This document shows, one piece after another, positions 1 through 14,274 of a stretch of 64,000 nt of DNA (the stretch's first letter is position 1; every line of letters begins with the position of its first letter). This DNA comes from Myxococcales bacterium. GTDB taxonomy: Bacteria; Myxococcota_A; Polyangia; Nannocystales; Nannocystaceae. Made by a program: the position numbers and the translations under genes. Below the pieces are notes generated by a model that made no database searches, was not told the origin of the DNA, and worked only from the letters and a program-made list of their open reading frames with translations. Where the stretch lies: NCBI GenBank assembly GCA_020633315.1, contig JACKDV010000004.1, forward strand, positions 320,071 to 384,070, in the 5' to 3' direction.

Positions 1-3000
1 CAGGGCGGAGACAGTAACGCCACAGCGGGAGCCCGGTGGGGCCTATCTCGCTTCAATGGGGCCGCCCTGCGAGCAGGGCGGAGACCGGGGGTGCCGGGAA
101 CCGGGGTCACGGCGTTGATGGTGCTTCAATGGGGCCGCCCTGCGAGCAGGGCGGAGACCGGTGAACGTGAGGGCGTGCGGCGAGCCTGCGTGAGCTTCAA
201 TGGGGCCGCCCTGCGAGCAGGGGCGGAGACCTCTCGTTCGCGGCCATCGAGAGAGCGAGGTTCACGCTTCAATGGGGCCGCCCTGCGAGCAGGGCGGAGA
301 CCTCGATTGACTTGAAAGTCAATCAGGTTTTCAACAGTGCTTCAATGGGGCCGCCCTGCGAGCAGGGCGAGACAGCTGGTGGCGACCTCGCACTGCTCCT
401 CTCGGCGGAGCTTCACGGCCCGCCCTGCGAGCAGGGCGGAGACTGGAGCTGATCAAGCGCTCCAAGGCCCGGGGTGGGCTTCAATGGGGCCGCCCTGCGA
501 GCAGGGCGGAGACGGATGACCGTCACCGCGGCGCCCACGGCCGAGGCGGCTTCAATGGGGCCGCCCTGCGAGCAGGGCGGAGACAACGTGGAGCGCGTCG
601 AAGAGAGGAAGAACGATGAAGCTTCAATGGGGCCGCCCTGCGAGCAGGGCGAGACACCCCGCAAGGGAAGGCGCTCACGACTGTGGGCCGCTTCAATGGG
701 GCCGCCCTGCGAGCAGGGCGGAGACCCCACCGCATGAAGAACCGTGCGCAGAACATCCGCAAGCTTCAATGGGGCCGCCCTGCGAGCAGGGCGGAGAACT
801 CCCTCGCGCCGCACGATGTCGCCATACGATTCCATGCTTCAATGGGGCCGCCCGCCCTGCGAGCAGGGCGGAACACGCCATGTGATAGCCTCCGCCGTGG
901 CTATCTCACGCTTCAATGGGGCCGCCCTGCGAGCAGGGCGGAGACCGGCCCGCTCGACGTGACCCCGACGCTGCTGATCTGGCTTCAATGGGGCCGCCCT
1001 GCGAGCAGGGCGGAGACCTGGACAAGCGAGGCGCCCACGACCTCGCCGGAAGGCTTCAATGGGGCCGCCCTGCGAGCAGGGCGGAGACGTGACCACAGGG
1101 TACCTGAGTCCGACGGCGAGTGCGGCTTCAATGGGGCCGCCCTGCGAGCAGGGGCGGAGACCGAGGAGAAGAGCACCGACCGCCCCACCCGGGGAAGCTT
1201 CAATGGGGCCGCCCTGCGAGCAGGGCGGAGACCGGGCTCTTCGTTCAGGTTGCGCTGCGTCTGTCGTCGTGTGCTTCAATGGGGCCGCCCTGCGAGCAGG
1301 GCGGAGACGCCATGGCGGGCATGTCCGGCGGGTTCGTGGGCCAGCTTCAATGGGGCCGCCCTGCGAGCAGGGCGGAGACGAGGTGCTCGACCGCGAACGA
1401 CCTTGGCCGACGAGCGCTTCAATGACGCCGCCCTGCGAGCAGGGCGGAGACGCGGCGAAGCTTCATGGCTGGCGTGTCGATGGAGCTTCAATGGGGCCGC
1501 CCTGCGAGCAGGGCGGAGACGCCCTTGGGCGGCGGCCGGATCGGGTGCGGATCACGCTTCAATGGGGCCGCCCTGCGAGCAGGGCGGAGACAACGGCGTC
1601 AGGCTGCGCAAGCGGAGCGTCAGGCGGCGCTTCAATGGGGCCCGCCCTGCGAGCAGGGCGGAGACGGATGTCTGAGCGTGTCGGCTTGGTCGCGGCACCC
1701 CGCTTCAATGGGGCCGCCCTGCGAGCAGGGCGGAGACGGGTCGCCGGGAGCGTGGTCGGCGGCACGGGATCGGGGCTTCAATGGGGCCGCCCTGCGAGCA
1801 GGGCGGAGACACACCTTTCCTCGCCGACGTCCAGCTCGACCACGACCTGCTTCAATGGGGCCGCCCTGCGGAGCAGGGCGGAGACCTCCGGTCCCCAGTC
1901 GTCCGGGATGTCCGTGTCGGCTTCAATGGGGCCGCCCTGCGAGCAGGGCGGAGACGCGCCAGGAGCCCACACCCACGCACCCCGGAGGCTTCAATGGGGC
2001 CGCCCTGCGAGCAGGGCGGAGACGAGCCGGGCGAGGTGGTGCTCGACATCATCGAGGCGCTTCAATGGGGCCGCCCTGCGAGCAGGGCGGAGACAGGGTC
2101 GGGCCTTTGCGGTGTGAGCACTCCAAGCGTGGAAGCTTCAATGGGGCCGCCCTGCGAGCAGGGCGGAGACGCGAGCAGGTGGCACGCGATGATTCTGGGC
2201 GAGGTGCTTCAATGGGGCCGCCCTGCGAGCAGGGCGGAGACAGCTCGGCGAGCGAGCCGGGTCCACCCGTCGACCGTGCTTCAATGGGGCCGCCCTGCGA
2301 GCAGGGCGGAGACCTTGAGAACACGACGCCATGCCCAATCGCTACCGCGTGCTGCTTCAATGGGGCCGCCCTGCGAGCAGGGCGGAGACGATCCCGCTTC
2401 CGCGGCCTCGGTCGCCGTCACGCGGCTTCAATGGGGCCGCCCTGCGAGCAGGGCGGAGACACACGAGCTTTCGTTGCCCTCCAGGCATACTGCGAGGCTT
2501 CAATGGGGCCGCCCTGCGAGCAGGGCGGAGACTCGGTCAGACTCCAAACACGGCGCGATCGGCCTCGAGCTTCAATGGGGCCGCCCTGCGAGCAGCAGGG
2601 CGGAGACTTGCGTAGCTGGTACAGCAGCTACGCACAGCACGACAGCTTCAATGGGGCCGCCCTGCGAGCAGGGCGGAGACGCGCGGCAAGCGTCTGGAGA
2701 TGCGCCCCGTTGAGTACGCTTCAATGGGGCCGCCCTGCGAGCAGGGCGGAGACGGGCCTCTTGCCGCGGCGCGGCCAGCATTCAGGTCGGCTTCAATGGG
2801 GCCGCCCTGCGAGCAGGGCGGAGACGTGGTAGCTCTGTACGAGCTGCTCCCGCAGGTGGAGGCTTCAATGGGGCCGCCCTGCGAGCAGGGCGGAGACATC
2901 TCATGCACGGCCTCTGGCTCCTCGGGGTACCCATAGCTTCAATGGGGCCGCCCTGCGAGCAGGGCGGAGACTCAGCGGATCCCGACCTGGACCCCATCGA

Positions 3001-3831
3001 CCGCTGCTTCAATGGGGCCGCCCTGCGAGCAGGGCGGAGACGCCGATGTCGATCACCCACCGGCCGAGGTACTCGCGCACGCTTCAATGGGGCCGCCCTG
3101 CGAGCAGGGCGGAGACATCCTGGCCCGTCCCGAGTGGGGCCCCATCATCGGGCTTCAATGGGGCCGCCCTGCGAGCAGGGGCGGAGACCCGCACAGGCAT
3201 GGTCGAGGGTATGGATCAGGGGCTTCAATGGGGCCGCCCTGCGAGCAGGGCGGAGACACACCATGACCCGGCAGCTCTGGGGCCTGACCCTGCGGCTTCA
3301 TGGGGCCGCCCTGCGAGCAGGGCGGAGACCGCAGGCGATCCATCGAGTCGACCGGATGCTCCGCCCTGCCCCGCCTGCGAGCAGGGCGGAGACCGAGGCA
3401 TCGAGCGAGCGGTGCGGGACCGGGCTTCAATGGGGCGGCTGCGACAGGGCGGAGACCGAGGCGTTCCCGCGCGCAGGCGACCATGGGCTTCACGGGGCCG
3501 CCTGCGAGCAGGGCGGAGACAGGGAGCGGACCCTGACGGTGCGCAGCCCTGCGAGCAGGGCGGAGACGAAAATCCTCGACCGGACCCGTGGGCGGCCCTT
3601 CAATGGGCAGCCGCCCTGCGAGCAGGGCGGAGACGACCGATCCCGCGCATCAATCCCCGCGGCCGCCTGCGGGGACGAACACGGCCACTTCAATGCGGGC
3701 ATGAGCCCGCCCTGCGAGCAGGGCGCGGGCGAGCACGGGCGGAGACGAGGCCGATCCCTTGCCGCAGGTCGACCAATGGGAGCCGCCCTGCGCTTCGGAG
3801 AATGGGGCCGCCCTGCGAGCAGGGCGGAGAC
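1..3831 (-). CRISPR. CRISPR array of about 54 repeat units. It runs off the window at position 1. The 36-bp repeat on the + strand is GCTTCAATGGGGCCGCCCTGCGAGCAGGGCGGAGAC (reverse complement GTCTCCGCCCTGCTCGCAGGGCGGCCCCATTGAAGC). Spacers are 35-38 bp. The last ~9 units (3296-3831) are progressively degenerate.
   Basis: Read directly: the repeat recurs more than 45 times with a 72-74 bp period. The six-frame track shows its recurring translations (LQWGRPASRAET, FNGAALRAGRR, SMGPPCEQGGD). The strand call rests on the reverse-complement repeat ending ATTGAAGC, which resembles the ATTGAAA(C/G) 3' handle of I-C and I-G repeats, plus an 8-bp stem CCGCCCTG/CAGGGCGG. Polarity is not certain; see findings. 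Confidence 0.95.
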
Positions 3832-4421
3832 TGCCGGTCCGCAACAGCTTACCATCATTGCCATTCTCGACCACCAATTCACGCGACCACCAAAACCGAC
3901 ATATCCCCGGTCCCGTGTTCAACACCTATGCAGTTCCCAGACATCATCGTAGCCCCCCTTGGCACTCGGAATTCTCCACTTTGCACGCAAGACCGGGGTT
4001 TCGCACGGCGAGATGCCGCGTGATTTCCAGTCACCCTATCACACCCACCGACCCCCCCACCATACCGGAGATCCCGCGGCCATGCCCGCGCCAATGCCTC
4101 GCAGCACCTCCCCGGACCTCCCGCTCGCCGATTCCACAGGCCATCGAGACCTCCCGGAACATCCCCAACCCCATTGCACTGCGCCCCGTGACCTCCCGGG
4201 ACATCTCCAACCCCACCGCACGGCCCGTCGAGACCTCCTGGGCATCCCCAACCCCATTGCACTGCGCCCCGCGACCTCCCCGGGTCTCTCCAATCCCCCA
4301 TGCACAGCCCCGCCGGATCTCCCGGGACCTCGCGCCCCTGACCCCTTCGAGCCAATCGCACTTTTTCGTCGACCCGCAGTGATCGAATCCCGTCCTCGCG
4401 CCACGTTACCTCCACACCGTC
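3832..4421. promoter_or_regulatory. Non-coding flank between the array and cas4-cas1. It is AT-richer next to the last repeat and has a C-rich top strand. It would be the leader if the array is transcribed from the minus strand.
   Basis: No credible ORF. The two + strand ORFs (3759..4382, 3959..4525) are proline-rich, low-complexity translations of C-rich DNA. Composition shifts immediately after the last repeat. Confidence 0.4.
4140..4312. repeat. Two tandem imperfect direct repeats of about 83 bp (about 80 % identical). The core is CGAGACCTCC..ATCCCCAACCCCATTGCACTGCGCCCCG(T/C)GACCTCCCGGG.
   Basis: Seen by eye: copy A starts near 4145 and copy B near 4228, each with the shared core ATCCCCAACCCCATTGCACTGCGCCCCG. 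Confidence 0.7.
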
Positions 4422-6272
4422 ATGCCCGAGCGCATCCGCCATTCACCGCCCAGCGAGTCTGCCGATCTCGTCCCCGTACGAATGTGCAACGAGCTGGTCT
4501 ACTGCGAGCGTTTGTTCTACCTTGAGCACGTCCAGGGCTACTTCGTCGACTCCTCCGACACGGTGCACGGCCGCTCCCAGCACGAGCGCGCCGCGACCAA
4601 GGGCCGCACCACCACCGTCACCCCTCCCACGGCCGAGCCCGACCCCGACGACCCCACCCTCTCCGAGCTGCTCGAGGCTCCCCGCCGCTGCGTCACCCTG
4701 GAGTCCGCCAGCCTCGGCGTGCGTGGCCAGGTCGACCTCGTCGAGCTGCACGACGACGAGGCGGTGATCATCGAGGCCAAGCACGGTGCATCGCCGTCCC
4801 ACGACGACCACCGCTGGTACGACCATCCCCTGCCCTACCGCGCCTGGCCGGCCGACGTGGCCCAGCTCGGCCTCTACATGGCGCTGCTGCGCGAGTCGGG
4901 CGTGCCCTGCCACCGCGCCCAGCTGCTGTACCGCAAGGACCGTCACCGCACCGAGATCCCCTGGTCCGCGGAGCTCGAGCGCTTCGTCCACGCAGTGGTC
5001 CGGCGCGCCCGCGAGGTGGCAGCGCTGCCCAAGCCCCCGGCCCCGCTCGAGCTCAGCCCCAAGTGCCCGCGCTGCTCGCTGCACACCATCTGCCTCCCCG
5101 ACGAGCACCTCGCCCTCGCCCGCGAGGCGGCCGGACAGACCGTGCCGCCGCTGCGCCGCATCGTGCCCGGCGCGGACGACCGCGCGGTGCTCCACGTGCT
5201 CACTCCCGGCAGCGCCCTGCGCAAGGACGGCCAGGGCATTCGCCTCAGCGTGCGTGGGATCCCCGATCCGCAGCGGATCCTCGTCAAGGATCTGGCCCAG
5301 GTCGCCCTGTACGGGCCCAGCCAGATCACCGCGCAGTGCATGACGATGCTGCTGCTCGAGGACGTCCCCGTGGCCCACCACACGGGCTCCGGCCGCCTGC
5401 TGGGCATGACGATGCCGCTGGCCACCCGCAACGTCACCCTGCGTCGCGCCCAGTTCCGCACCGCCGACGATCCCGAGCGCTGCCTCGTCGCCGCCCGAGC
5501 CCTGGTCGTGGCCAAGATCCGCAACCAGCGAACCGTGCTCCGCCGCTACCGCACGGGTCACACCGCCGACGATCCCCTCGACGAGCGGCTCCCGGCCTGG
5601 GCCGATCCCACCGCCGACGATCCCGAGACCCAGGCCGCCGTGGAGCAGCGCGCCACCACCATCGGCGAGGCGCTCGCCCGCATGCGCAACGCCTGGCGCG
5701 GCGCCCAGCGAGCCACGGACATCGACGCCCTACGCGGCCACGAGGGCGACGCCGCCGCGACCTACTTCGGCGCCCTGCCCTCGATCCTGCCCGCCCCGTG
5801 GCCCGACGAGCTGCGCGGACGCTCGCGTCGCCCGCCTCGCGATCGCGTCAACGCCATGCTCGGCTTCGGCTACGCCATGCTCACCCGCGACGCCACCGCG
5901 GCCCTCGGTCGCGTGGGCCTCGATCCCATGGTCGGCCTGTTCCACACCACCATCCCCGGCCGCCCGGCCCTGGCCCTCGATCTGCTCGAGCCCTTCCGCC
6001 CCGCCTGGGTCGATGCCTCCATCCTGCGCCTGCTCGCCACGGGTGGGATCACCCCGGAGTGCTTCATCCGCTCCGGCGACGGTGTGTTCCTCACCGATCC
6101 CGGCCGCCGCGCCCTGGTGGCCGCCTACGAGCGCCGCGCCGACGAGCGGATCACCCACCCTCGCTTCGGCTACCGCATGAGCTACCGCCGCATGCTCGAG
6201 CTCGAGGCCCGCGTGCTCGCCAAGTGGATGGCCGGCGAGATCGACGAATTCTCTCCCCTGCTCACCCGCTAG
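4422..6272 (+). CDS. cas4/cas1: Cas4-Cas1 fusion protein (616 aa)
   Basis: The N-terminal part is Cas4-like (RecB-family nuclease) with an N-terminal Cys and a C-terminal Cys cluster (KCPRCSLHTIC) that fits a 4Fe-4S site. The C-terminal 330 aa are Cas1-like. It lies immediately upstream of cas2. A Cas4/Cas1 fusion is typical of type I-G (I-U). Confidence 0.85.
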   Translation: MPERIRHSPPSESADLVPVRMCNELVYCERLFYLEHVQGYFVDSSDTVHGRSQHERAATKGRTTTVTPPTAEPDPDDPTLSELLEAPRRCVTLESASLGVRGQVDLVELHDDEAVIIEAKHGASPSHDDHRWYDHPLPYRAWPADVAQLGLYMALLRESGVPCHRAQLLYRKDRHRTEIPWSAELERFVHAVVRRAREVAALPKPPAPLELSPKCPRCSLHTICLPDEHLALAREAAGQTVPPLRRIVPGADDRAVLHVLTPGSALRKDGQGIRLSVRGIPDPQRILVKDLAQVALYGPSQITAQCMTMLLLEDVPVAHHTGSGRLLGMTMPLATRNVTLRRAQFRTADDPERCLVAARALVVAKIRNQRTVLRRYRTGHTADDPLDERLPAWADPTADDPETQAAVEQRATTIGEALARMRNAWRGAQRATDIDALRGHEGDAAATYFGALPSILPAPWPDELRGRSRRPPRDRVNAMLGFGYAMLTRDATAALGRVGLDPMVGLFHTTIPGRPALALDLLEPFRPAWVDASILRLLATGGITPECFIRSGDGVFLTDPGRRALVAAYERRADERITHPRFGYRMSYRRMLELEARVLAKWMAGEIDEFSPLLTR

Positions 6273-6276
6273 CCCG

Positions 6277-6573
6277 ATGCGCCATCACTTCATCGTGGCC
6301 TATGACATCAGCGATCCCCAGCGCCTCCGCCAGGTCCACAAGACCGTGCGTGACTTCGGCACGCCGCTCCAGCTCTCCGTGTTCGCCTGTACCCTCTCTT
6401 CCCTCGACCGCGCCACCTTGCAGGCACGCCTGCTGACGATCATCGACACCACCGCCGACCAGGTGATGTTCGTGCGCCTCGCCCCGGTCCACCCCGGTGA
6501 CACCCGCCCCCCCGGCTGCGAGACCCTCGGCCGGCCCCTGCGAGCTCGGATCGACAGCGCCATCGTGACCTGA
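6277..6573 (+). CDS. cas2: Cas2 (98 aa)
   Basis: The N-terminus HFIVAYDISDPQRLRQVHKTVRDFGTPLQLSVFAC matches the Cas2 pattern (V.YDI...R..v.k.L..yG.r.Q.SVFeC). It starts 4 bp after cas4/cas1. Confidence 0.9.
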   Translation: MRHHFIVAYDISDPQRLRQVHKTVRDFGTPLQLSVFACTLSSLDRATLQARLLTIIDTTADQVMFVRLAPVHPGDTRPPGCETLGRPLRARIDSAIVT

Positions 6574-7104
6574 TCACCTCGGCCCACTTCGGGGCTCGCC
6601 GAACCCGAGACCCCTCTGCTCTACTCCGGTGCCCCGATATGCCAACCTGATCGACCGTCTTTAGTCACTCATCTCCCAGTCATGAACCCAGACGGATGAC
6701 CTGACTTCAACAGCGACGGCAATAGAGCCCCCTGGTACGAGATTCAGCTGATGACTGTCTCTCGCGCCGCGAAGACGCTCGATTTCTGTTGACAGAGTAG
6801 GTAGGTGGGGTTCACCCTCCGAGCATGGCAGGGTCAAAGTACTACGGAGGCGTCCGGCCCGTAAAGAGAATTTTCAGGAACCTCATCGAGGTACTGGCCT
6901 GGCTGCTCTTCCCCAACCCAGAACCTCCCCAACAGCCACCAAAACCTCCGCCTCAGAAGCCGCCTATCGGCTTCTAGAAAGTCCAACAACTTCCTCATGG
7001 ACACGGGGCGGCCCCATTGAAGTCGGGCCGGTCGTCTGCGGAGTACACCAGCCAACACCAATTTCCGCCCCGGTCCGCCTAGCCGACCACAGGTCCCCCC
7101 CGTC
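6574..7104 (+). promoter_or_regulatory. AT-rich intergenic region after cas2, about 530 bp. It is leader-like, contains a TTGACA hexamer near 6790, and is probably the promoter region of the cas7-cas5/6-cas3-cas8 operon.
   Basis: GC is markedly lower than the flanking genes and there is no credible ORF. The minus-strand ORF 6834..7214 is an artefact that reads through the repeat remnant. Confidence 0.5.
7001..7023 (+). repeat. Solitary degenerate CRISPR repeat remnant in the opposite orientation to the main array. A 17-nt stretch, GGGCGGCCCCATTGAAG, matches the reverse-complement repeat exactly.
   Basis: Read directly: ACACGGGGCGGCCCCATTGAAGTC versus repeat reverse complement ..CGCAGGGCGGCCCCATTGAAGC. 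The minus-strand ORF translation here contains LQWGRP, the peptide signature of the repeat. Confidence 0.75.
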
Positions 7105-8295
7105 ATGACCGCTCCCACGCCCACCGTCGATTCCCTCCACGCCGCCGTCACCGGTGACGTGGTGGCCTTCCGCCTCCGCGCCCGTCTCCAGCCCGCCGGA
7201 GGCCCCGGGGACAAGGTGTTCCCGCCGACCTACGCCACGGGCCAGGATGACCGCGACCACGAGACCAAGTACGCCACCGAGGAGCGCATGATCGACGGCC
7301 GTCGCGTGCCCTCGGTGCTGCTCGACTCGGTCGCCTCGCAGGCCAACCGCATGGAGCTGGCCCTGCTCCGGGCCCGTGAGCGCGACGGCCTGAGCCTGCC
7401 CCTGATCGCGGTGGACTTCGGGCCCACCCTGCCCGAGCTCGGCCGGATCAGCGCGCTCGAGGCCCCCCACCGCGTCTACGATGCGATCCTGCGCGATGCC
7501 ACCCTCGACGGCACGGCCTTCCGCGCCTCGGAGCTCGGCCGCCGCCTCACCGATGCCAGCCCGTCCGACGCCCGAGCGATGCTCGAGCACTGCCCCACCG
7601 CCCTGCTCTTCGGCGCCTGGGACTCCACCGGCCCCCGCGGCGGCCGAGGTCACAAGTTCCAGCGCGCGCTGGTCAGCGAGGTGGTCGGCATCGACTTCGC
7701 GACGGGCACCAAGGTGGGCAGTCGCATCGACCCGCTGCAGATCTCGGCCAGCGTGCGCCTGAGCATCCCCAAGGAAGACTCCGACGCATGGACCGTGGAC
7801 GCCACCGGCAAGTCCAAGCAGCGCCCGTCCGAGGTCAACCACTCCAACATCGCCCCCACCCGCGACGGGGAGGCCGGCGGGGTCACCCTCGACCACGCGC
7901 TGCACACCGCAGTGCTGTCCCTGCCCGCCCTGCGACGGCTTCGCTTCGGCAACTGGGACGACGCCCGCAGCGACGCCGCCCGCACCCTGCTGGCCGCGCT
8001 GGGCCTGCTCGCCCTCGTGCTGCAGCGCCGGGTCGGCTACGACTTCCGCAGCCGCTGCACCCTGGTGCCCGAGGGCCCCGTGGCGCTCGAGCAGGTGGGC
8101 GCCGACGGCAGCCGCGACCCCCTGCCCCTGTCGGTCGCCGAGGCCCGTGCCCTCTTCGATGCCGCGCTCGCCCGCGCCCGCGAGCAGGGCGTGCCCTGGG
8201 CCGAGGACGAGGTGGTGCTTCGGCCCATGCCCAAGCTGGTGCAGCTGGTCGAGGCGAGCCAGCAGCTCATGGCCGCGGGTGGCCCGGCGGACTGA
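7105..8295 (+). CDS. cas7: Cas7 of type I-G (Csb1 / GSU0053-like), 396 aa
   Basis: Its size and its position immediately upstream of the Csb2 homologue match the csb1-csb2 pair of I-G/I-U systems. I could not verify the family match by hand. Confidence 0.55.
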   Translation: MTAPTPTVDSLHAAVTGDVVAFRLRARLQPAGGPGDKVFPPTYATGQDDRDHETKYATEERMIDGRRVPSVLLDSVASQANRMELALLRARERDGLSLPLIAVDFGPTLPELGRISALEAPHRVYDAILRDATLDGTAFRASELGRRLTDASPSDARAMLEHCPTALLFGAWDSTGPRGGRGHKFQRALVSEVVGIDFATGTKVGSRIDPLQISASVRLSIPKEDSDAWTVDATGKSKQRPSEVNHSNIAPTRDGEAGGVTLDHALHTAVLSLPALRRLRFGNWDDARSDAARTLLAALGLLALVLQRRVGYDFRSRCTLVPEGPVALEQVGADGSRDPLPLSVAEARALFDAALARAREQGVPWAEDEVVLRPMPKLVQLVEASQQLMAAGGPAD

Positions 8296-9898
8296 GATGC
8301 TCTGCCTGCGCCTGGAGCTGCTCACGGGTCGCTATGTGGCCTGTGCGTTCAACGATCGCGATCGCGTGGAGTGGCCCCCCCACCCCGCGCGCGTGTTCTC
8401 GGCCCTGGTCGCCGCGCTGCACGACGGCGAGCCCCTCGAGGCGGAGCGGGCGGCCCTGCGCTGGCTCGAGTCGCTGCCGCCCCCCGCCCTGCACCACTCC
8501 CCCGCCTCGGTGCGTGACGCCAAGGTCTTCTACGTGCCCGTCAACGACAAGGCCCTCACCGACAAGGCCACCGTGAGCAACGCCTGGGCCCGCGTCCTCG
8601 ATCCTGCGCTGCCCCCCAAGGCGCGGGCCAAGGCCGAGGCACGCCTGGCCGACGCCTACGAAAAGGCCGGCGCCACCGAGGCCACGCGGCCCAAGAAGGT
8701 GCGCGAGATCGTCGACCACCTGCTGCCGCACAGCCGCACCAAGCAGCCCCGAGCCTTCCCCTCGGCGACCCCACACGACCCCGCGGTGTGGCTGTGCTGG
8801 GACGCCGAGCCCGAGCCCTCCGTCCGCGCCGGGCTGGAGGCGCTGCTGCGCCGGCTCGTCCGCCTCGGCCACAGCAGCTCCATGGTCGCGGCCCGCCTGG
8901 TCGACGATGCCCCGGCCCCGGCCTTGCGGCCCGACCCCGAGGGGCCCGAGCGGCTGCGCTGGGTGGGCCCGGGACAGCTGGCCGCCCTCGAGGCGCTCCA
9001 CGCCGCCGCCCCCTACTCCGAGCAGCGGGTGATGCCCTACGTGGTGGCCCGCTACCGCCACGCCGAGGCACGCACCGAGCCCGCGCGCTCGAGCTTTGCG
9101 GCCGACTTCCTCGTGCTGCGCCGGGTGGATGGACCGCGGCTGCCCGTGCTGGCCACCGAGCGCGTGGCCGATGCGGTGCGCCGGGCCCTGATGGCCCACG
9201 CCGAGGATCCCCGCGCACCGCTGCTGTCGGGCCACGCCCCCGACGGCGCGCCCCTGCAGGACGACCACCTGGCCGTGGTCCCGCTGCCCTTCGTCGGGGC
9301 TCGCCACGCCACCGGTGATCTGCTCGGCGTGGCGCTGGTGCCCCCCGCCGGGCTCTCGCGCGGCCAGCTGCGCCCGCTCCATGCCGCTCTGGCCCGCTGG
9401 GAGGCCGCGGGTGGCGAGCCCAGGGGGCAAGACCCGCGCTGCGTGCTCAACCTGGGTCGGCTCGGCCGGTGGACGCTCGAGCGCAGCCTCGAGCCCTCGC
9501 CGCTCCACAACCTGCGCGAGCCCGCCTGGACCCGCCTCGATCGCCGCTGGGTGAGCGTCACCCCGGTGCTGCTCGATCGCCACCCGGGCTCGCTCGGCGA
9601 CCCCAAGCCCTCGGCCCGGCGCCGGGCCGTGCGACGAGCCGACGAGATCATCTCCGCCGCCTGCGAGCGCATCGGGCTGCCGGCGCCCGAGCGCATCGAG
9701 CTCTCGCTCGATCCTCCGCTGCGCGGCACCGAGCCCGCCCCTCGCTTCGAGGCATGCCGTCGCGACCCCGCCGACCGCCGCCCGCTGCTGCACCTTCGGC
9801 TCACCTTCCCCCGGCCGGTCGGCGGCCCCGTGCTGCTGGGAGCCGGCCGCTACCGCGGCCTGGGCCTGCTGCGTCCCATGGGAGGCGAAGCCCCGTGA
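8285..9898 (+). CDS. csb2: Cas5/Cas6 fusion of type I-G (Csb2 / GSU0054-like), about 537 aa
   Basis: The N-terminus MLCLRLELLTGRYVACAFNDRDRVEWPPHPARVFSALVAAL matches the Csb2 signature (GRYHA...VEWPPSPwRLfrALVA). Start is taken at the internal Met, so the gene overlaps the end of cas7 by 11 bp. Confidence 0.8.
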   Translation, partial: RRTEMLCLRLELLTGRYVACAFNDRDRVEWPPHPARVFSALVAALHDGEPLEAERAALRWLESLPPPALHHSPASVRDAKVFYVPVNDKALTDKATVSNAWARVLDPALPPKARAKAEARLADAYEKAGATEATRPKKVREIVDHLLPHSRTKQPRAFPSATPHDPAVWLCWDAEPEPSVRAGLEALLRRLVRLGHSSSMVAARLVDDAPAPALRPDPEGPERLRWVGPGQLAALEALHAAAPYSEQRVMPYVVARYRHAEARTEPARSSFAADFLVLRRVDGPRLPVLATERVADAVRRALMAHAEDPRAPLLSGHAPDGAPLQDDHLAVVPLPFVGARHATGDLLGVALVPPAGLSRGQLRPLHAALARWEAAGGEPRGQDPRCVLNLGRLGRWTLERSLEPSPLHNLREPAWTRLDRRWVSVTPVLLDRHPGSLGDPKPSARRRAVRRADEIISAACERIGLPAPERIELSLDPPLRGTEPAPRFEACRRDPADRRPLLHLRLTFPRPVGGPVLLGAGRYRGLGLLRPMGGEAP

Positions 9899-12726
9899 GC
9901 GCTCCCCCGGCCACGCTCTCGGCCGACGACTTCGCCGCCTTCGTTCGCGAGGTGACGGGCCACGATCCCTTCCCCTGGCAGCGGCGATTGCTCCGTACCG
10001 TGCTCGACGACGGCTGGCCCGACCTGCTCGACCTCCCCACCGGGACCGGCAAGACCACCGCCATCCTCGTGGCCCTGTTCGCGCTCGCCCTGCACCCCCA
10101 GCGCTTCCCTCGGCGGATCGCCCTGGTGGTGGACCGGCGGATCATCGTCGATCAGGTCGACGGCTACGCCCGTCGGATCCGCACCGCCCTCGACGACGAC
10201 GCGCGCCCCACTGGCCGCCGCGTGGCCCAGCACCTGCGCGCGCTGGCCTCGGCCCCCGATGTCGACCCCGTCCGCGTGGTGCACCTGCGCGGTGGCATCC
10301 TCCGCGACGACGCCTGGCTGGGCACGCCCGACCAGCCCACCATCCTCGCCTCCACCGTCGACCAGGTGGGCTCGCGGCTGCTGTTTCGCGGCTACGGCGT
10401 GTCGGAGAGCATGCGCCCGGTCCACGCCGGCGTGCTGGCCCGCGACACCCTCTACCTGCTCGACGAGGTCCACCTCGCCACCGCCTTCGAGGAGACCCTC
10501 TCGCGGCTCCAGGGCACCTACGCCGCGTGGGCCGAGCGCCGCACCGGGCGACCGCTGACCGTCGTCCGCATGAGCGCCACCGCCCGCACCACGGGCCCGC
10601 CGGCGCGGACGAGCTTCGGCCTGGACGACGACGACCGCCGGCACCCCGTGCTCGCGCGGCGGCTCGGCGTGTCGCGCCTGGCCACGCTCGAGTGGGTGCC
10701 CACCCGCGCGGGCACCGACGCGAGCAGCCAGGCCCGCAACCGGGAGCTGCTGGCCCAGATCGCGATCGAGCGCGTCGAGCAGGCCCTCGCCGAGGGGGCC
10801 AGCTCGGTGGGCGTGGTGCTCAACCGCGTGGACACGGCCCGCCGCGCCGCGGCCCGGCTCGAGGGACGCGACGAGCTCGAGCTCGAGCTGCTCACCGGGC
10901 GCATGCGAGCCTGGGAGAAGACCGCCACGCAGGCGCGGGTGCAGCAGCGGGTGGGCGCCGGCGTGCCTCGCCCGAAGGGAGCGCGCCCGGTGGTGGTCGT
11001 GGCCACGAGCTGCATCGAGGCCGGCGCCGACCTGGACTTCGATGCGCTCGTCACCGAGGCCGCCAGCCTCGATGCCCTGCGGCAGCGCTTCGGCCGTCTG
11101 AACCGCCTGGGCGAGCACGGCCGTAGCTGGGCGTGGATCCTCGGGCGCAAGGATCAGCTCGGCGCCCGGGCCGAGCCCGACCCGATCTACGGCGAGGCCC
11201 TGCGCAACACCTGGGCCTACCTCGAACAGCTCGCCGACGACGGCCGCGTCGACTTCGGCCTCGAGGCCCTGCCCCTGCCGCCGCCCGACCGGGGCGCCAG
11301 CCTGCTGCCTCCGAGCCCGGAGGCGCCCGTGCTGTTCCCCAGCGTGCTCGACATGTGGGCCGAGACCCGGCCCGCGCCGCACCCCGACCCGGATCCCTCG
11401 CTGTGGCTGCACGGCAAGGGACGGCCGGCCGAGCGCGACGTACAGCTGGTGTTCCGGGCCGACCTGCCCCCAGCCACCGATGACGAGGCCGTGCGCTCGC
11501 GTGCAGCCGAGGCCCTCGAGCGCCTGCCGCCGGTGAGTGACGAGGCCGTCGACGTCCGCCTCGGCCGGGAGCTACGGGACGTGCTCGGCTCGGGTCCCGT
11601 GTGGCGCTGGACCGCCGCGGGGCTCGAGGCGGTCGGCCCCGATGCGCTGCGTCCCGGCGATACCGTGATCATGGACGCTCGCGCCGGCGGCCTGCGCCGG
11701 GGCACCTGGGATCCCGCCGCCGACCGGCCCGTGTCCGATCTGGCCGAGCGAGCGCTGTGGGCCACGCGGGGCCTGGCTCGGCTGCGGCTGTCGAAGGCCA
11801 CGCTGCCCGAGCCGCTCCACGCTGGTCTGCCGGCCCCGCCGAGCGCCGACGATCCCGAGGGCCTCGAGCCCACGCGAGCCGAGCACGAGGCATGGCTCGA
11901 CGGCCTGGCCGCTCGCCTCGATGGCGTCGATGCCAGCTGGCATCCGCTGCTGCGCGCCATCGCCGGGGCCGGTCGACACCGCCGGCTGCTCCTGGGCATC
12001 GACGGCGCGGGCCAGCCCATGGCGTGGGTCCTCGTAGCACCTCCCCGGCGTGCGGCCGAAGCCACCACCGAGGATGCGGTCTCCGCCTTCAGCGGGCTCG
12101 AGGTCGCGCTGCACGATCACCTCGCCGACGTGGAGGCATGGGCCGAAGCCTTCGCCACCGGGGCGGGGCTCGGGCCCGAGCTCGCGGCCGACCTCGCCCT
12201 CGCCGGCCTGCTGCACGACCTGGGTAAGGCCGACCCTCGCTTCCAGGCCCTGCTGCGCGGCGGCGATCCCATCGCGGCCGTCGGCGGCCCGCCCCTGGCC
12301 AAGTCGCGGCAGCTCGGCTCGGTGCAGACCCGGGCCCGTGCCGAGCAGCGCAGCGGCTGGCCCCCCGGGCTGCGCCACGAGCTGGTCTCGCTCGCCCTGC
12401 TCGACGCCAGCGAGGCCCTCCGCGCCCGCGCCCACGACCTCGAGCTGGTGCGCCACCTCGTCGCCAGCCACCACGGCTGGTGTCGCCCCTGGGTCCCCGC
12501 GATGCTCGACCCCGAGCCCACCGTGGTGCGGGTGCAGATCGCCGGCATCGCGGCCGAGGTCCGCACCGACGCGCTCGACGACGCCTTCGGGGCCCGGTGT
12601 GCCGCTCGCTTCCATCGCCTGTGTCGTCGCTACGGCTGGCACGGGCTCGCCTACCTCGAGGCCCTGCTGCGGCTGGGAGATCATCGCGCCAGCGCCACGC
12701 CGGGCGCCCGACCGGAGGCATCGTGA
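9895..12726 (+). CDS. cas3: Cas3 helicase with C-terminal HD nuclease domain (about 943 aa)
   Basis: It has Walker A DLPTGTGKT and a DEVH box (LLDEVHL). A C-terminal HD motif (LLHDLGKADPRFQ) is present. A C-terminal HD domain is characteristic of type I-G Cas3. The GTG start overlaps the csb2 stop (GTGA). Confidence 0.85.
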   Translation: MSAPPATLSADDFAAFVREVTGHDPFPWQRRLLRTVLDDGWPDLLDLPTGTGKTTAILVALFALALHPQRFPRRIALVVDRRIIVDQVDGYARRIRTALDDDARPTGRRVAQHLRALASAPDVDPVRVVHLRGGILRDDAWLGTPDQPTILASTVDQVGSRLLFRGYGVSESMRPVHAGVLARDTLYLLDEVHLATAFEETLSRLQGTYAAWAERRTGRPLTVVRMSATARTTGPPARTSFGLDDDDRRHPVLARRLGVSRLATLEWVPTRAGTDASSQARNRELLAQIAIERVEQALAEGASSVGVVLNRVDTARRAAARLEGRDELELELLTGRMRAWEKTATQARVQQRVGAGVPRPKGARPVVVVATSCIEAGADLDFDALVTEAASLDALRQRFGRLNRLGEHGRSWAWILGRKDQLGARAEPDPIYGEALRNTWAYLEQLADDGRVDFGLEALPLPPPDRGASLLPPSPEAPVLFPSVLDMWAETRPAPHPDPDPSLWLHGKGRPAERDVQLVFRADLPPATDDEAVRSRAAEALERLPPVSDEAVDVRLGRELRDVLGSGPVWRWTAAGLEAVGPDALRPGDTVIMDARAGGLRRGTWDPAADRPVSDLAERALWATRGLARLRLSKATLPEPLHAGLPAPPSADDPEGLEPTRAEHEAWLDGLAARLDGVDASWHPLLRAIAGAGRHRRLLLGIDGAGQPMAWVLVAPPRRAAEATTEDAVSAFSGLEVALHDHLADVEAWAEAFATGAGLGPELAADLALAGLLHDLGKADPRFQALLRGGDPIAAVGGPPLAKSRQLGSVQTRARAEQRSGWPPGLRHELVSLALLDASEALRARAHDLELVRHLVASHHGWCRPWVPAMLDPEPTVVRVQIAGIAAEVRTDALDDAFGARCAARFHRLCRRYGWHGLAYLEALLRLGDHRASATPGARPEAS

Positions 12727-13739
12727 CCCACGACGCACATCCCCTGCCCCTGCCTGGCCTGGACGGCCTCGATCCGCTGGGCTTCCTCGCGGCGCTGGGC
12801 TGCCTGGTGGCCACCACCGAGCACAGTCGGGCCGAGGGAGCGCGCGAGCCCTCGATGAGCTGGCAGCTGGGCGGACGACCGATCCCCGTGCTGCACGGAC
12901 CGTGGGGCCATGGGGACGCGTTGGTCGAGGTCCTCCACGACGACCTCCGCCGGCTGGCCGGGCGCGGGTCCGACGAAGAGTCGAGAGCTCCGAGGGATCC
13001 GTTCCTCGAGCTGTCGTATCCCGATGCCGACGGCAAGCCCGTGCACGATCTCAAGCCACCGCCCTCGGTGCTGCGGGAGCTCGCGCAGGGGCTGGTGGAT
13101 CAGGCCACGCCGGAGCGACGGCGGACGGTCGACTGGCTGTCCGCCGTGCTGACCGACGTGGCCGTGGATGGCAGCGGCGCGGCCAAGCCCTTTGCCCTGC
13201 ACTTCACCGCGGGCCAGCAGCGCTTCGGCGTGGTGGCGCTCGAGCTGCTCGACGGCAAGGCCGGGGCCAAGCCCGGCTCAGCGGGGCGGCCGGTCGACGC
13301 CGAGGACCTGCGGATCGCCCTGCACGGGCCGTGGCCCGACGATCGCACGCTCAAGGTGTTCGGCTGGAGCCCCACGCAGGATCGTGCCTATGCGCTGCGA
13401 GCCGTCGACCCCTCGGGCGACACCAAGCTCGGCACCCCCGGCGCCGACTGGCTGGCGCTGCGGGGGATCGGGCTGCTGAGCAGCGCGCCCGTGCGGGATC
13501 GGATCGCCACCAGCGGCGTGCACGGGAGCTGGAAGCGCGGCACCTGGAGCTACCCGCTGTGGCCGATGCCGCTGACGGCCGAGGTGGCACGATCGCTGCT
13601 GCGACATCCATCGGTGGCCCCGCCCGACGAGCGGCGAGGCAGCAGCACCCTGCCGCTCGGGGTGGAGGTGCTCACCTGCCGGATCACGCGCTCCGAGCAG
13701 GGTGGCTACGGAGCGCTGTCGCGACCCTCTCGGGGATGA
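12723..13739 (+). CDS. cas8u2: Cas8u2/Csx17-like large-subunit candidate. It is short, about 338 aa, and possibly truncated.
   Basis: The N-terminus ..LPGLDGLDPLGFLAALGCLVATTEH resembles the Csx17 N-terminal motif. It is the last gene of the cas operon and its GTG start overlaps the cas3 stop. Length is about half of typical Csx17 proteins. Confidence 0.45.
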   Translation: MTHDAHPLPLPGLDGLDPLGFLAALGCLVATTEHSRAEGAREPSMSWQLGGRPIPVLHGPWGHGDALVEVLHDDLRRLAGRGSDEESRAPRDPFLELSYPDADGKPVHDLKPPPSVLRELAQGLVDQATPERRRTVDWLSAVLTDVAVDGSGAAKPFALHFTAGQQRFGVVALELLDGKAGAKPGSAGRPVDAEDLRIALHGPWPDDRTLKVFGWSPTQDRAYALRAVDPSGDTKLGTPGADWLALRGIGLLSSAPVRDRIATSGVHGSWKRGTWSYPLWPMPLTAEVARSLLRHPSVAPPDERRGSSTLPLGVEVLTCRITRSEQGGYGALSRPSRG

Positions 13740-13898
13740 GCCGGCACGCCCCCACCCATTGGACCGGAACCTATGATCTCAGTCGCACGGTCGGGCACTT
13801 CATCGATCGCTGGCGACACTGCCCGACGTACCGGTCGAGCTGGTGCTCGCGGTGGACGAGCCGTCTCGCGTCGACATCCGACCCGATGGAGAATACTC

Positions 13899-14081
13899 AT
13901 GACAGCGAATTCGATATCCGACGCACCACTGCCCGATCGCCTCCGCCGGCTGCGAGACCTGCGGCTGGACGGCCTGGTGGAGCGTGACATCGCCGTACGC
14001 CTGGCCCTGCTGGCGATGCTGGCTGGCGAGCACCTACTGCTCATCGGGCCGCCTGGGACCGCCAAGAGCCTGATCTTCTAG
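13899..14081 (+). pseudogene. N-terminal fragment (60 aa) of a RavA/MoxR-type AAA+ ATPase gene, ending in a premature stop
   Basis: LPDRLRRLRDLRLDGLVERDIAVRLALLAMLAGEHLLLIGPPGTAKSLIF* aligns with the E. coli RavA N-terminus (..[38 protein letters not shown]) but stops inside the Walker A region. It is embedded in AT-rich non-coding DNA (13740-14275). Confidence 0.6.
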
Positions 14082-14274
14082 CGGAGGGCAAGCCCTCCAG
14101 TGGCTAGATTCACCCAGGTCTAGCGGCATGCGGCGATGATGGCGCGAGCTCACGGCGACGAGCAGCTCCTCCGAGCGATCCACATCGGGCACGGCGACGA
14201 TCGACGCGGATCCGTCACCACGATGTGACTTGCTGCATCGATGCATCGCTGGATAGCGTCGGCTCCGAGGTGAG

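What the first reader, a model, noticed from the sequence alone, without database searches (positions are those of the whole stretch)
1..13739. Type I-G (I-U) CRISPR-Cas locus with a permuted gene order
The order here is array, cas4-cas1, cas2, AT-rich gap, cas7 (csb1), cas5/6 (csb2), cas3 with C-terminal HD, then a short cas8u2. The reference I-G arrangement is cas3-cas8u2-cas7-cas5/6-cas4/1-cas2-leader-array. Here the adaptation module sits between the array and the effector genes, and the effector pairs are swapped. Four gene junctions use overlapping start/stop codons. The separate, promoter-containing gap before cas7 suggests two transcription units.
Basis: partly seen in the sequence, partly recalled or inferred. 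Interest (0 to 1): 0.6.

Follow-up and report, generated by a model that had tools for sequence, protein, structure and literature searches.

The report
Ordinary type I-G CRISPR locus, self-regulating
This is a complete type I-G CRISPR-Cas immune locus of a myxobacterium whose "unusual" gene order is the normal one for a known variant with a short large subunit, and the gap before its effector genes probably holds a small CRISPR-like RNA that lets the system repress its own promoter.

Summary
They are cas4-cas1, cas2, cas7/Csb1, Csb2 (cas5-cas6), cas3 with a C-terminal HD domain, and a 338-aa large subunit.

The order cas7-csb2-cas3-short cas8g is not a local permutation. All 64 related loci that could be read in full have it, and none of the 80 fetched shows another order. 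The order is published for myxobacteria; Bifidobacterium type I-G has the same gene set. Only the adaptation module moves. The upstream, same-strand position seen here is the Nannocystaceae form.

Only two of the four junctions overlap. The array reads on the opposite strand, diverging from cas4-cas1.

New here: the cas2-cas7 gap holds a lone repeat tail (7006-7023) followed by a spacer-like stretch. Its first 23 nt match a TTA-flanked site 160 nt upstream at 19 positions. Twelve other loci of this variant carry similar elements with TTN-flanked partial targets. Their mismatches cluster at positions 6, 12 and 18. This fits a CreR-type autorepressor, which is a known kind.

Overall this is a new member of known kinds, of modest interest.

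The parts
1..3831 (-). CRISPR array, cut by the left edge of the window. The 36-nt repeat in crRNA sense is GTCTCCGCCCTGCTCGCAGGGCGGCCCCATTGAAGC. About 45 regular spacers of 32-40 nt. The roughly 8 units nearest cas4-cas1 (3290-3831) are degenerate.
   Evidence: orientation from the TTGAAGC tail (PMC11237760) and from relatives, whose degenerate repeats lie at the far end
3832..4421 (.). Leader of the array plus the upstream region of cas4-cas1, which are divergent. Lower G+C at 3840-4020. Contains a 42-nt tandem repeat (4.3 copies) at 4144-4326.
4422..6272 (+). cas4-cas1 fusion (616 aa)
   Evidence: NF049935 cas4g_cas1g, 568.5 bits against a cut-off of 560, E 1.3e-170; PF01930 and PF01867; PADLOC Cas1g
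6277..6573 (+). cas2 (98 aa)
   Evidence: TIGR01573 and PF09827; PADLOC Cas2g 1.8e-21
6789..6794 (+). Exact TTGACA, a candidate -35 box of the effector operon, 44 nt upstream of the self-target
   Evidence: no matching -10 box was found; inferred only
6839..6864 (-). Predicted target of the crRNA-like RNA. The minus strand reads 5'-TTA|CGGGCCGGACGCCTCCGTAGTAC. That is a TTN-type PAM followed by 23 nt, 19 of which match the pseudo-spacer.
   Evidence: 0 of 400 random windows reach 19/24; the maximum was 16; found independently as inverted repeat I1
7006..7023 (+). Lone pseudo-repeat, GGGCGGCCCCATTGAAGt. Its first 17 nt are identical to the 3' end of the array repeat in crRNA sense, including the 8-nt handle.
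   Evidence: It is the only such match outside the array in the 64-kb window, on either strand
7024..7063 (+). Pseudo-spacer of about 37-40 nt, CGGGCCGGTCGTCTGCGGAGTACACCAGCCAACACCA...
7064..7077 (+). Second, partial pseudo-repeat, TCCGCCCCGGTCCG. It matches 10 of 12 positions of the repeat's 5' part. It can pair with 6998-7011 to enclose the handle and pseudo-spacer in a 13-bp stem.
7105..8295 (+). cas7 (Csb1, 396 aa)
   Evidence: TIGR02570, 63.7 bits against a cut-off of 38; PF09617 2e-54; PADLOC Cas7g 1.6e-48
8297..9898 (+). csb2 (cas5-cas6 fusion, 533 aa). The ATG is 1 nt after the cas7 stop codon.
   Evidence: TIGR02165, 282.8 bits against a cut-off of 45; PADLOC Cas56g 2.2e-120; start site
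9895..12726 (+). cas3 (943 aa), helicase with a C-terminal HD nuclease domain. GTGA overlap with csb2.
   Evidence: TIGR02621 cas3_GSU0051, 716.8 bits against a cut-off of 400; TIGR01596 and PF18019 HD at residues 881-1006 of the long ORF; PADLOC Cas3g 3.9e-234
12723..13739 (+). Short Cas8g-type large subunit (338 aa). GTGA overlap with cas3.

Best explanation
The region is a complete, apparently intact type I-G (formerly I-U) CRISPR-Cas locus of a Nannocystaceae-like myxobacterium. It belongs to the known variant in which the large subunit is a short (about 300-345 aa) Cas8g homologue encoded directly after cas3.

Shown:
- In this variant the effector operon always reads cas7(csb1)-csb2-cas3-cas8g. 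Only the adaptation module (cas4-cas1, cas2) and the array change place between lineages.
- The arrangement here is array on the opposite strand, leader, then cas4-cas1, cas2 and the effector genes. This is the form shared by the Nannocystaceae relatives.

Inferred from the families and from published type I-G work:
- Csb2 cuts the array transcript into crRNAs with an 8-nt ATTGAAGC handle.
- Cas7, Csb2 and the short Cas8g form the surveillance complex with Cas3 as an integral part.
- DNA next to a TTN motif is the target.

Inferred from sequence statistics, with probability about 0.6:
- The 531-nt cas2-cas7 gap carries a degenerate mini-array (pseudo-repeat 7006-7023, pseudo-spacer from 7024, partial second pseudo-repeat 7064-7077).
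- Its RNA would guide the complex to a TTA-flanked, partly matching site at 6839-6861, close to a TTGACA box.
- Because pairing stops after about 23 of about 37 nt, the complex would bind without cutting. It would then repress the effector operon, as CreR RNAs do in other type I systems.
For: Family matches: all seven products pass the curated cut-offs of type I-G or general Cas models and get type I-G names in PADLOC.

Organism: the best named homologues of the last protein come from Paraliomyxa, Enhygromyxa and Nannocystaceae genomes assembled from metagenomes.

Gene order:
- Among 80 loci from species-representative genomes, 78 have cas3 directly upstream of the short cas8g.
- 64 show the full cas7-csb2-cas3-cas8g order, and none shows another order.
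- The adaptation module lies downstream in 25, upstream and divergent in 12, upstream on the same strand in 7 (all Nannocystaceae-type), and convergent in 1. It is absent within 10 kb in 19.
- The literature reports the same order in myxobacteria (PMC11237760), and Bifidobacterium lactis type I-G has the same gene set (PMC9335239, PMC12915315).

Mini-array in the window:
- The 17-nt repeat tail in the gap is the only one outside the array.
- The pseudo-spacer matches its target at 19 of 24 positions. The maximum in 400 random windows was 16.
- The similarity starts exactly at the first spacer base and is flanked by TTA.

Mini-arrays in other loci:
- Thirteen further loci have a repeat tail on the cas strand 155-1067 nt upstream of cas7.
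- Twelve of these plus the window were tested. In 12 of these 13 loci the best nearby match of the following 37 nt is flanked by TTN. With shuffled pseudo-spacers this holds in 12 of 260 cases, and the TT dinucleotide frequency is 3.7%.
- In the 10 best pairs, mismatches pile up at positions 6 (7/10), 12 (5/10), 18 (8/10) and 24 (9/10). They are almost absent at positions 1-5, 7, 8, 11 and 13. This is the 5+1 pairing rhythm of type I complexes.
- A TTGACA-like box lies within or near most of the ten best-matching targets examined.
- A long-range stem enclosing the handle and pseudo-spacer recurs in 7 loci with different sequences.
Against: Locus:
- No typing program could be run. Expression and activity are unknown.
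- The leader-proximal repeats (3290-3831) are degenerate. This is atypical and could mean that spacer uptake has stopped.

Regulatory RNA:
- The nearest relatives do not have it. L081 has only 55 nt between cas2 and cas7. L003, L006, L007, L008 and L051 show no convincing repeat tail.
- The first pseudo-repeat lacks its own hairpin and the second is only partial.
- The window's mismatches fall at positions 9, 12, 15 and 18. Only two of these are flipped-out positions.
- No consensus -10 box was found.
- The fold of the element is not better than shuffles (z -1.3).
- A second partial inverted copy at 6689-6710 is unexplained.

Confidence: 0.8

Rival explanations
1. A canonical type I-G locus (cas3-cas8-cas7-csb2-cas4/1-cas2-array) was scrambled locally, giving a unique permuted arrangement that might alter function.
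For: The order does differ from the Geobacter/Thioalkalivibrio reference described in PMC9638904 and PMC10333696. The adaptation module does move between lineages.
Against: The effector order cas7-csb2-cas3-short cas8g is invariant in all 64 fully readable related loci, from Myxococcota, Burkholderiales, Acidobacteria, Actinobacteria and Planctomycetes. It is already described for myxobacteria (PMC11237760). The short large subunit is a separate sequence family, not a truncated Csx17. The difference is therefore old and marks a variant.
Confidence: 0.05
2. The repeat tail and spacer-like stretch in the cas2-cas7 gap are an inert relic of an array or of a recombination event. The match to 6839-6861 is a leftover inverted duplication with no regulatory role.
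For: The element is absent from the nearest relatives. Both pseudo-repeats are incomplete. The fold is not significant. Another partial inverted copy exists at 6689-6710. Lone repeat-like sequences are common in type I-G loci (46% of 235 loci, PMC10120712), and many may be debris.
Against: The similarity begins exactly at the first spacer base and is flanked by TTA, in a genome where TT is rare. The same design recurs in 12 other loci with TTN flanks and mismatches at every sixth position, which is hard to get without selection.
Confidence: 0.3
3. The element is the antitoxin half of a CreTA-type addiction module. The crRNA-like RNA would repress a small toxin gene lying between the target and the pseudo-repeat, rather than the cas operon.
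For: CreA and CreR elements look alike and both sit in cas intergenic regions (10.1101/2023.03.10.532045). About 140 nt lie between the target and the pseudo-repeat. A 7-codon ORF starts at 6997 (read from the sequence).
Against: The mini-ORF has no ribosome-binding site and ends inside the pseudo-repeat. In other loci the target-to-repeat distance is as short as 40-59 nt (L013, L042, L044), which leaves no room for a toxin gene.
Confidence: 0.05
4. The 338-aa protein is an accessory of Cas3, as the NCBI name 'Cas3-extension family' suggests. It would not be the large subunit of the surveillance complex, which would then work without any Cas8.
For: It is always encoded directly after cas3, often with overlapping codons. 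NCBI curators named it after Cas3. It lacks the Cas11-like helical C-terminal domain described for Csx17 (PMC9638904).
Confidence: 0.15

Closest known systems
Myxobacterial type I-G loci with csb1-csb2-cas3-cas8u1 (Sorangium and Nannocystineae; PMC11237760)
   Same: Same gene families and same effector order. Same 36-nt repeat ending in TTGAAGC. Type I-G is reported as the commonest subtype in Nannocystineae. Sorangium loci L012, L014, L016, L018, L019 and L021 contain the same short large subunit at 42-44% identity.
   Different: In Sorangium the adaptation genes are mostly divergent from the effector operon, or downstream of it in L019. Here they lie upstream on the same strand, and the array diverges from cas4-cas1.
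Bifidobacterium animalis subsp. lactis type I-G (PMC9335239, PMC12915315, 10.1101/2022.08.19.504415)
   Same: Leader and array, cas4-cas1 fusion, cas2, csb1, csb2, a third small effector protein (Csb3) and cas3. It is active in interference. The crRNA has an 8-nt handle. cas4-cas1 is transcribed separately from the rest.
   Different: The PAM is TAT/TAC rather than TTN. I could not test directly whether B. lactis Csb3 belongs to the same family. A Bifidobacteriaceae genome assembled from a metagenome (L010) does encode a member at 45% identity. No regulatory mini-array is reported there.
Reference type I-G of Geobacter sulfurreducens and Thioalkalivibrio sulfidiphilus (Csx17/Cas8g1; PMC9638904)
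   Different: The reference order is cas3-cas8g-cas7-csb2-cas4/1-cas2-array. Its large subunit has about 650-700 aa with a Cas11-like helical C-terminal domain. Here the large subunit has 338 aa, is mixed alpha/beta throughout, is encoded after cas3, and matches no Csx17 sequence model.
CreR / crRNA-like regulatory mini-arrays (10.1101/2023.03.10.532045; PMC10120712)
   Same: A degenerate repeat plus a spacer-like sequence in a cas intergenic region. Partial, PAM-flanked complementarity to a site next to the promoter of the effector genes. Similar elements were noticed by eye for subtype I-U. Lone repeats occur in 46% and mini-arrays in 4% of 235 type I-G loci.
   Different: Repression has been shown experimentally only for types I-B, I-E, V-A and I-F, not for I-G. 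Here the two pseudo-repeats are inner halves that can pair with each other across the pseudo-spacer. I did not find this feature described in the papers I read.

Membership tests
Type I-G (I-U) CRISPR-Cas | Csb2, a Cas5-Cas6 fusion (the signature gene) | tested here: met
   TIGR02165, 282.8 bits against a cut-off of 45, full-length match 1-492/492; PADLOC Cas56g 2.2e-120
Type I-G (I-U) CRISPR-Cas | Cas4-Cas1 fusion protein | tested here: met
   NF049935 cas4g_cas1g, 568.5 bits against a cut-off of 560; Cas4 domain at residues 20-226 and Cas1 at 257-616
Type I-G (I-U) CRISPR-Cas | Cas7 of the Csb1/GSU0053 family | tested here: met
   TIGR02570, 63.7 bits against a cut-off of 38; PF09617 184.5 bits
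Type I-G (I-U) CRISPR-Cas | Cas3 of the GSU0051 family with the HD nuclease at the C-terminus | tested here: met
   TIGR02621, 716.8 bits against a cut-off of 400; HD models match residues 881-1006 of the 1085-aa ORF, downstream of the helicase region
Type I-G (I-U) CRISPR-Cas | No separate cas5, cas6 or cas11 gene | tested here: met
   The six cas genes abut or overlap, apart from the 531-nt gap. The only long ORF that crosses the gap is an antisense one (6964-8325) overlapping cas7
Type I-G (I-U) CRISPR-Cas | 36-nt repeat with a hairpin and a TTGAAGC/ATTGAAAC-type 3' tail | tested here: met
   GTCTCCGCCCTGCTCGCAGGGCGGCCCCATTGAAGC on the minus strand; this motif is described for myxobacterial type I-G in PMC11237760
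Type I-G (I-U) CRISPR-Cas | TTN protospacer-adjacent motif | tested here: inconclusive
   No protospacers of real spacers were found. The only evidence is the TTA or TTN flank of the pseudo-spacer targets here and in 11 other loci
Csx17 (Cas8g1/Cas8u) large-subunit family | Sequence match to the Csx17 model, and a length of about 650-700 aa with a Cas11-like C-terminal helical domain | tested here: not met
Short Cas8g family (NCBIfam NF049934 'Cas3-extension'; PADLOC PDLC01514 'Cas8g, CAS-I-U large subunit') | Match above the curated cut-off, and a gene directly after cas3g | tested here: met
   251.8 bits against a cut-off of 65, model positions 1-297/299; PADLOC 2e-53; GTGA overlap with cas3; 991 homologues, the 120 listed being 238-355 aa long
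Canonical type I-G gene order (cas3-cas8g-cas7-csb2-cas4/1-cas2-array) | cas3 and cas8g precede cas7 and csb2, and the array follows cas2 on the same strand | tested here: not met
   The order here is array(-), cas4/1, cas2, cas7, csb2, cas3, cas8g
Short-Cas8g type I-G variant (csb1-csb2-cas3-cas8u1) | Effector operon cas7-csb2-cas3-short cas8g | tested here: met
   Same order in 64 of 64 fully readable related loci; described in PMC11237760
CreR-type crRNA-like regulator | Lone repeat-like sequence in a cas intergenic region, in crRNA sense | tested here: met
   7006-7022 is identical to the last 17 of 18 repeat bases before the final C, and is unique outside the array
CreR-type crRNA-like regulator | Spacer-like sequence with partial, PAM-flanked complementarity starting at spacer position 1 | tested here: met
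   19 of 23 positions match, with 8 contiguous at the PAM-proximal end and a TTA flank. None of 400 random windows reached this score
CreR-type crRNA-like regulator | Target within or next to the promoter of the effector cas genes | tested here: inconclusive
   TTGACA lies 44 nt upstream of the target. No -10 box or start site is known. TTGACA-like boxes adjoin the targets in most other loci
CreR-type crRNA-like regulator | Effector-dependent processing of the RNA and repression of the promoter | not testable with these tools
   Needs RNA sequencing or reporter assays
CreR-type crRNA-like regulator | Recurrence in related loci | tested here: met
   Twelve other short-Cas8g loci carry such an element. 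In the 13 loci tested, including the window, the flank is TTN in 12, against 12 of 260 controls, with mismatches at positions 6, 12, 18 and 24. The element is absent in the closest Nannocystaceae relatives

The most novel reading that the evidence does not exclude
A sizeable fraction of type I-G systems with the short Cas8g (13 of the roughly 64 loci with readable upstream regions) autoregulate their effector operon through a crRNA-like RNA encoded just upstream of cas7. This RNA has a design that I did not find described. Only the inner halves of two repeats are kept. They pair with each other across the handle and pseudo-spacer, so one composite stem could serve Csb2 both for cutting the 5' handle and for holding the 3' end. 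The window would carry a young, lineage-specific copy of such a regulator.
Probability: 0.45. Interest if true: 0.5.

Novelty: new member of a known kind. Interest (0 to 1): 0.3.

Why it matters
The finding as stated does not change anything. It is one more example of a documented type I-G variant. Its value is as a correction: the Geobacter-type order should not be taken as the only type I-G arrangement.

The side result is more useful. It gives statistical, cross-species evidence that type I-G effector complexes are steered to their own promoters by degenerate mini-arrays. The evidence is the TTN flanks and the mismatches at every sixth position. This supports a TTN motif and the 5+1 pairing rhythm for the short-Cas8g variant without any experiment. 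It extends CreR-type autoregulation to a subtype where it has only been glimpsed. It also offers ready-made guide and target pairs for testing type I-G binding without cleavage.

Tried and rejected
- Sequence search of the short large subunit against PDB chains found no meaningful hit; the best E-value was 0.78.
- I looked for targets of the pseudo-spacer outside the gap, in the leader region, downstream of the locus and in the whole window. Only short chance matches turned up.
- I looked for the element in the closest relatives (L001, L003, L005-L008, L051, L081), using their own repeats and relaxed motifs. Nothing convincing was found.
- The consensus promoter and terminator scan of 3700-7200 found no sites.
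- The Rfam scan of 1-14500 found nothing above threshold. There was only a weak CRISPR-DR16 hit on the minus strand, at 22.9 bits against a threshold of 35.
- The array spacers were compared with the rest of the window and with the 80 loci. There were no self-targets or shared spacers.
- MAFFT could not align the 3' arms of the mini-arrays. Pairs were therefore counted in an anchored register with a script.
- I considered that the gap element marks an inversion breakpoint of an ancestral cas2-leader-array unit. I dropped this as the sole explanation. Relatives with the same gene arrangement have no such remnant and keep a conserved leader on the cas4-cas1 side.
- I considered a frame-shifted longer large subunit (ORFs 12050-13987 and 12480-13739). 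I rejected it. The alternative frame has no family match, and the family model starts right after the GTG at 12723.

Full report
**What is there.** The window has about 72% G+C.

A CRISPR array runs from its left edge to 3831. It has 50 repeats with at most five errors, several more decayed units, and spacers of 32-40 nt. Read on the minus strand, the 36-nt repeat is GTCTCCGCCCTGCTCGCAGGGCGGCCCCATTGAAGC. That is an 8-bp hairpin followed by the TTGAAGC tail that a survey of myxobacterial CRISPR systems reports for type I-G (PMC11237760). The array is therefore transcribed away from the cas genes, and the leader lies in 3832-4421.

Six cas genes follow on the plus strand:
- cas4-cas1, 4422-6272
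- cas2, 6277-6573
- cas7/csb1, 7105-8295
- csb2, 8297-9898
- cas3, 9895-12726
- a 338-aa gene, 12723-13739

The cas2-cas7 gap is 531 nt with about 60% G+C. Two junctions overlap (GTGA at 9895 and at 12723). The other two are gaps of 4 nt and 1 nt.

**Typing.** Every product passes a curated NCBIfam cut-off:

| Product | Model | Bits | Cut-off |
|---|---|---|---|
| Cas4-Cas1 | cas4g_cas1g | 568.5 | 560 |
| Cas2 | cas2 | 34.6 | 24.5 |
| Cas7g | Csb1/Cas7g | 63.7 | 38 |
| Csb2 | Csb2 | 282.8 | 45 |
| Cas3g | Cas3g | 716.8 | 400 |

The HD models match the C-terminal quarter of Cas3. Pfam agrees. PADLOC names the products Cas1g, Cas2g, Cas7g, Cas56g, Cas3g and Cas8g. No typing program was available, but no evidence points to another subtype.

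**The last gene.** It has no Pfam hit and no Csx17 hit.
- It matches NCBIfam NF049934, "type I-G CRISPR-associated protein, Cas3-extension family", at 251.8 bits against a cut-off of 65.
- It also matches a 287-position PADLOC profile labelled Cas8g, the large subunit of CAS-I-U, at 2e-53.
- It has 991 detectable homologues. The 120 listed are 238-355 aa long. The closest named ones come from Paraliomyxa, Enhygromyxa and other Nannocystaceae, which places the window in that family.
- An AlphaFold2 model built on 51 sequences is confident (pLDDT 91.9) and is mixed alpha/beta to its end.
- Foldseek and a sequence search of the PDB found nothing.

My reading is that this is a Cas8g homologue that corresponds to the alpha/beta N-terminal domain of Csx17 and lacks the Cas11-like helical domain. 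Which domain is matched is inferred from the length and the secondary structure. One caveat applies: the deposited Csx17 chain was built from a predicted model fitted into a low-resolution map (PMC9638904). That paper also notes that three size variants of Cas8g exist.

**Is the order unusual?** I fetched 80 loci that encode this short protein from species-representative genomes. They come from Myxococcota, Burkholderiales, Acidobacteria, Pseudonocardiaceae, Acidimicrobiia, Planctomycetes, Bifidobacteriaceae and others. I mapped the six window proteins on them.
- cas3 lies directly upstream of the short cas8g in 78 loci. The other two are cut by a contig end.
- The full cas7-csb2-cas3-cas8g order is visible in 64 loci, and no locus has another order.
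- Only the adaptation module moves. It is downstream on the same strand, followed by the array, in 25 loci. It is upstream and divergent in 12, upstream on the same strand in 7, and convergent in 1. It is not seen within 10 kb in 19.
- The seven upstream same-strand cases are the Nannocystaceae-type relatives. A further relative (L081) is arranged the same way. In six of the seven the array lies on the opposite strand about 360-520 nt before cas4-cas1, as in the window; L005 has no array in the sequence held.

The literature already says this. In myxobacteria csb1-csb2 is followed by cas3-cas8u1 or by cas3-csx17 (PMC11237760). The Bifidobacterium lactis system, which has been shown to work, has a leader and array, cas4-cas1, cas2, csb1, csb2, csb3 and cas3 (PMC9335239, PMC12915315). 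The "permutation" is real only relative to the Geobacter/Thioalkalivibrio example.

**The gap.** Searching for half repeats outside the array gave a single hit in 64 kb. It is GGGCGGCCCCATTGAAG at 7006-7022, on the cas strand and in crRNA sense.
- The 37 nt that follow behave like a spacer with a self-target. Their first 23 nt match the minus strand at 6839-6861 in 19 positions.
- The match starts exactly at the first spacer base and the site is preceded by 5'-TTA.
- None of 400 random windows of equal size reached 19 of 24; the maximum was 16. The repeat finder reports the same pair independently.
- TTN is the published type I-G motif (PMC9638904).
- After the pseudo-spacer comes TCCGCCCCGGTC, which resembles the 5' part of the repeat.
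- An exact TTGACA lies 44 nt upstream of the target. The consensus scan found no complete promoter.

**Recurrence elsewhere.** A repeat tail on the cas strand lies 155-1067 nt upstream of cas7 in L013, L022, L023, L025, L028, L035, L042, L044, L045, L048, L050, L052, L060 and L076. Twelve of these plus the window were carried into the PAM test; L022 and L035 gave no self-target above background.
- In 12 of these 13 loci the best nearby match of the following 37 nt is flanked by TTN. This holds in 12 of 260 cases for shuffled pseudo-spacers, and the TT frequency is 3.7%.
- In the ten best pairs the mismatches concentrate at positions 6 (7/10), 12 (5/10), 18 (8/10) and 24 (9/10). Positions 1-5, 7, 8, 11 and 13 almost never differ. 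This is the pattern expected if a type I complex, which flips out every sixth base, reads these sites.
- The ten best-matching targets lie 40-410 nt upstream of the pseudo-repeat. Most contain or adjoin a TTGACA-like box.
- In seven loci, including the window, the stretch before the CCCC-ATTGAAG tail pairs with the stretch that starts with TCCG 39-42 nt into the pseudo-spacer. Positions 1-9 are paired in six or seven of the seven loci, with several different pair types.
- Part of this complementarity is inherited from the palindromic repeat. Even so, the stems extend beyond the repeat-derived part. In the window they carry a compensating A-T to G-C change relative to the array repeat.

**Mechanism.** Some steps are shown: family membership, gene order, the existence of the lone repeat, and its PAM-flanked partial self-match.

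Other steps are inferred from published type I-G work. Csb2 processes the crRNA. Cas7, Csb2 and Cas8g form the complex with Cas3 integrated. Interference depends on a TTN motif.

A further step is inferred from the statistics above. The gap encodes a CreR-like RNA that guides the complex to its own promoter region. Pairing limited to about 23 of about 37 nt would allow binding but not cutting, which gives negative feedback on the effector operon.

Such regulators are proven for types I-B, I-E, V-A and I-F. They were noticed by eye for type I-U (10.1101/2023.03.10.532045). Lone repeats occur in 46% and mini-arrays in 4% of 235 type I-G loci (PMC10120712).

**Doubts.**
- The closest relatives lack the element. 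L081 has only 55 nt between cas2 and cas7. The window's copy is therefore young or accidental.
- Its mismatches (positions 9, 12, 15, 18) fit the sixth-position rule only in part.
- The local fold is not better than shuffles.
- A second partial inverted copy of the handle plus pseudo-spacer at 6689-6710 is unexplained. It matches 17 of 22 positions, and the background maximum was 16.
- The array units nearest the leader (3290-3831) are decayed. In relatives the decayed units are at the far end. Spacer uptake may have stopped here.

**Verdict.** This is a correctly typed but ordinary type I-G locus of a documented variant. The claimed permutation is the norm for that variant. The probable self-regulating mini-array is a new member of a known class and gives the region modest extra interest.

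Noticed in passing
window 3290-3831: The roughly eight repeat units nearest cas4-cas1 (the leader side, judging by repeat orientation) are heavily degenerate, with indels and half repeats. In relatives L003, L006 and L051 the degenerate units are at the far end and the cas-proximal repeats are perfect.
   Followed up: partly
window 4144-4326: A 42-nt tandem repeat (4.3 copies, consensus CGAGACCTCCCGGGCATCCCCAACCCCATTGCACTGCGCCC) lies between the leader and the cas4-cas1 start. It accounts for most of the extra length of this intergenic region (590 nt, against about 360 nt in most relatives). The longer motif tested (CCCCAACCCCATTGCAC) occurs nowhere else in the window. Its function is unknown.
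   Followed up: partly
window 6689-6710 (minus strand): A second, inverted partial copy of the handle plus the first 15 nt of the pseudo-spacer (TTGAAGTCAGGTCATCCGTCTG). It matches 17 of 22 positions, and the background maximum was 16 in 400 windows. It has no TTN flank, and no target was found for the sequence that follows it.
   Followed up: partly
window 1-3300: About ten otherwise regular repeats carry one- to three-base insertions or deletions, often in G or C runs (for example CAGGGGCGGAGAC, CAGGGCGAGAC, GCAGCAGGGCGG). This could be real variation or long-read assembly error. The cas genes show no frameshifts.
   Followed up: no
window 14275-16770; L081 9604-12732: A Ser/Thr protein kinase gene follows the cas locus, both in the window and in the 67%-identical relative L081 (there with TPR repeats). 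This suggests a conserved chromosomal neighbourhood rather than recent transfer of the locus.
   Followed up: no
L082 1796-6647: In a 74%-identical Nannocystaceae relative, the short cas8g is followed by ThiF-like, SMODS nucleotidyltransferase and TIR-CHAT genes. This looks like a CBASS-like defence neighbourhood.
   Followed up: no
L022 20-160: A Burkholderiales locus has two complete repeats with one spacer (a true mini-array) 230-300 nt upstream of cas7. I found no self-target above background for either following sequence.
   Followed up: partly
L008 3192-4380; L051 3138-4366: Two related loci have gaps of about 1.2 kb between cas2 and cas7, with no clear repeat tail. The content of these gaps was not examined.
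   Followed up: no
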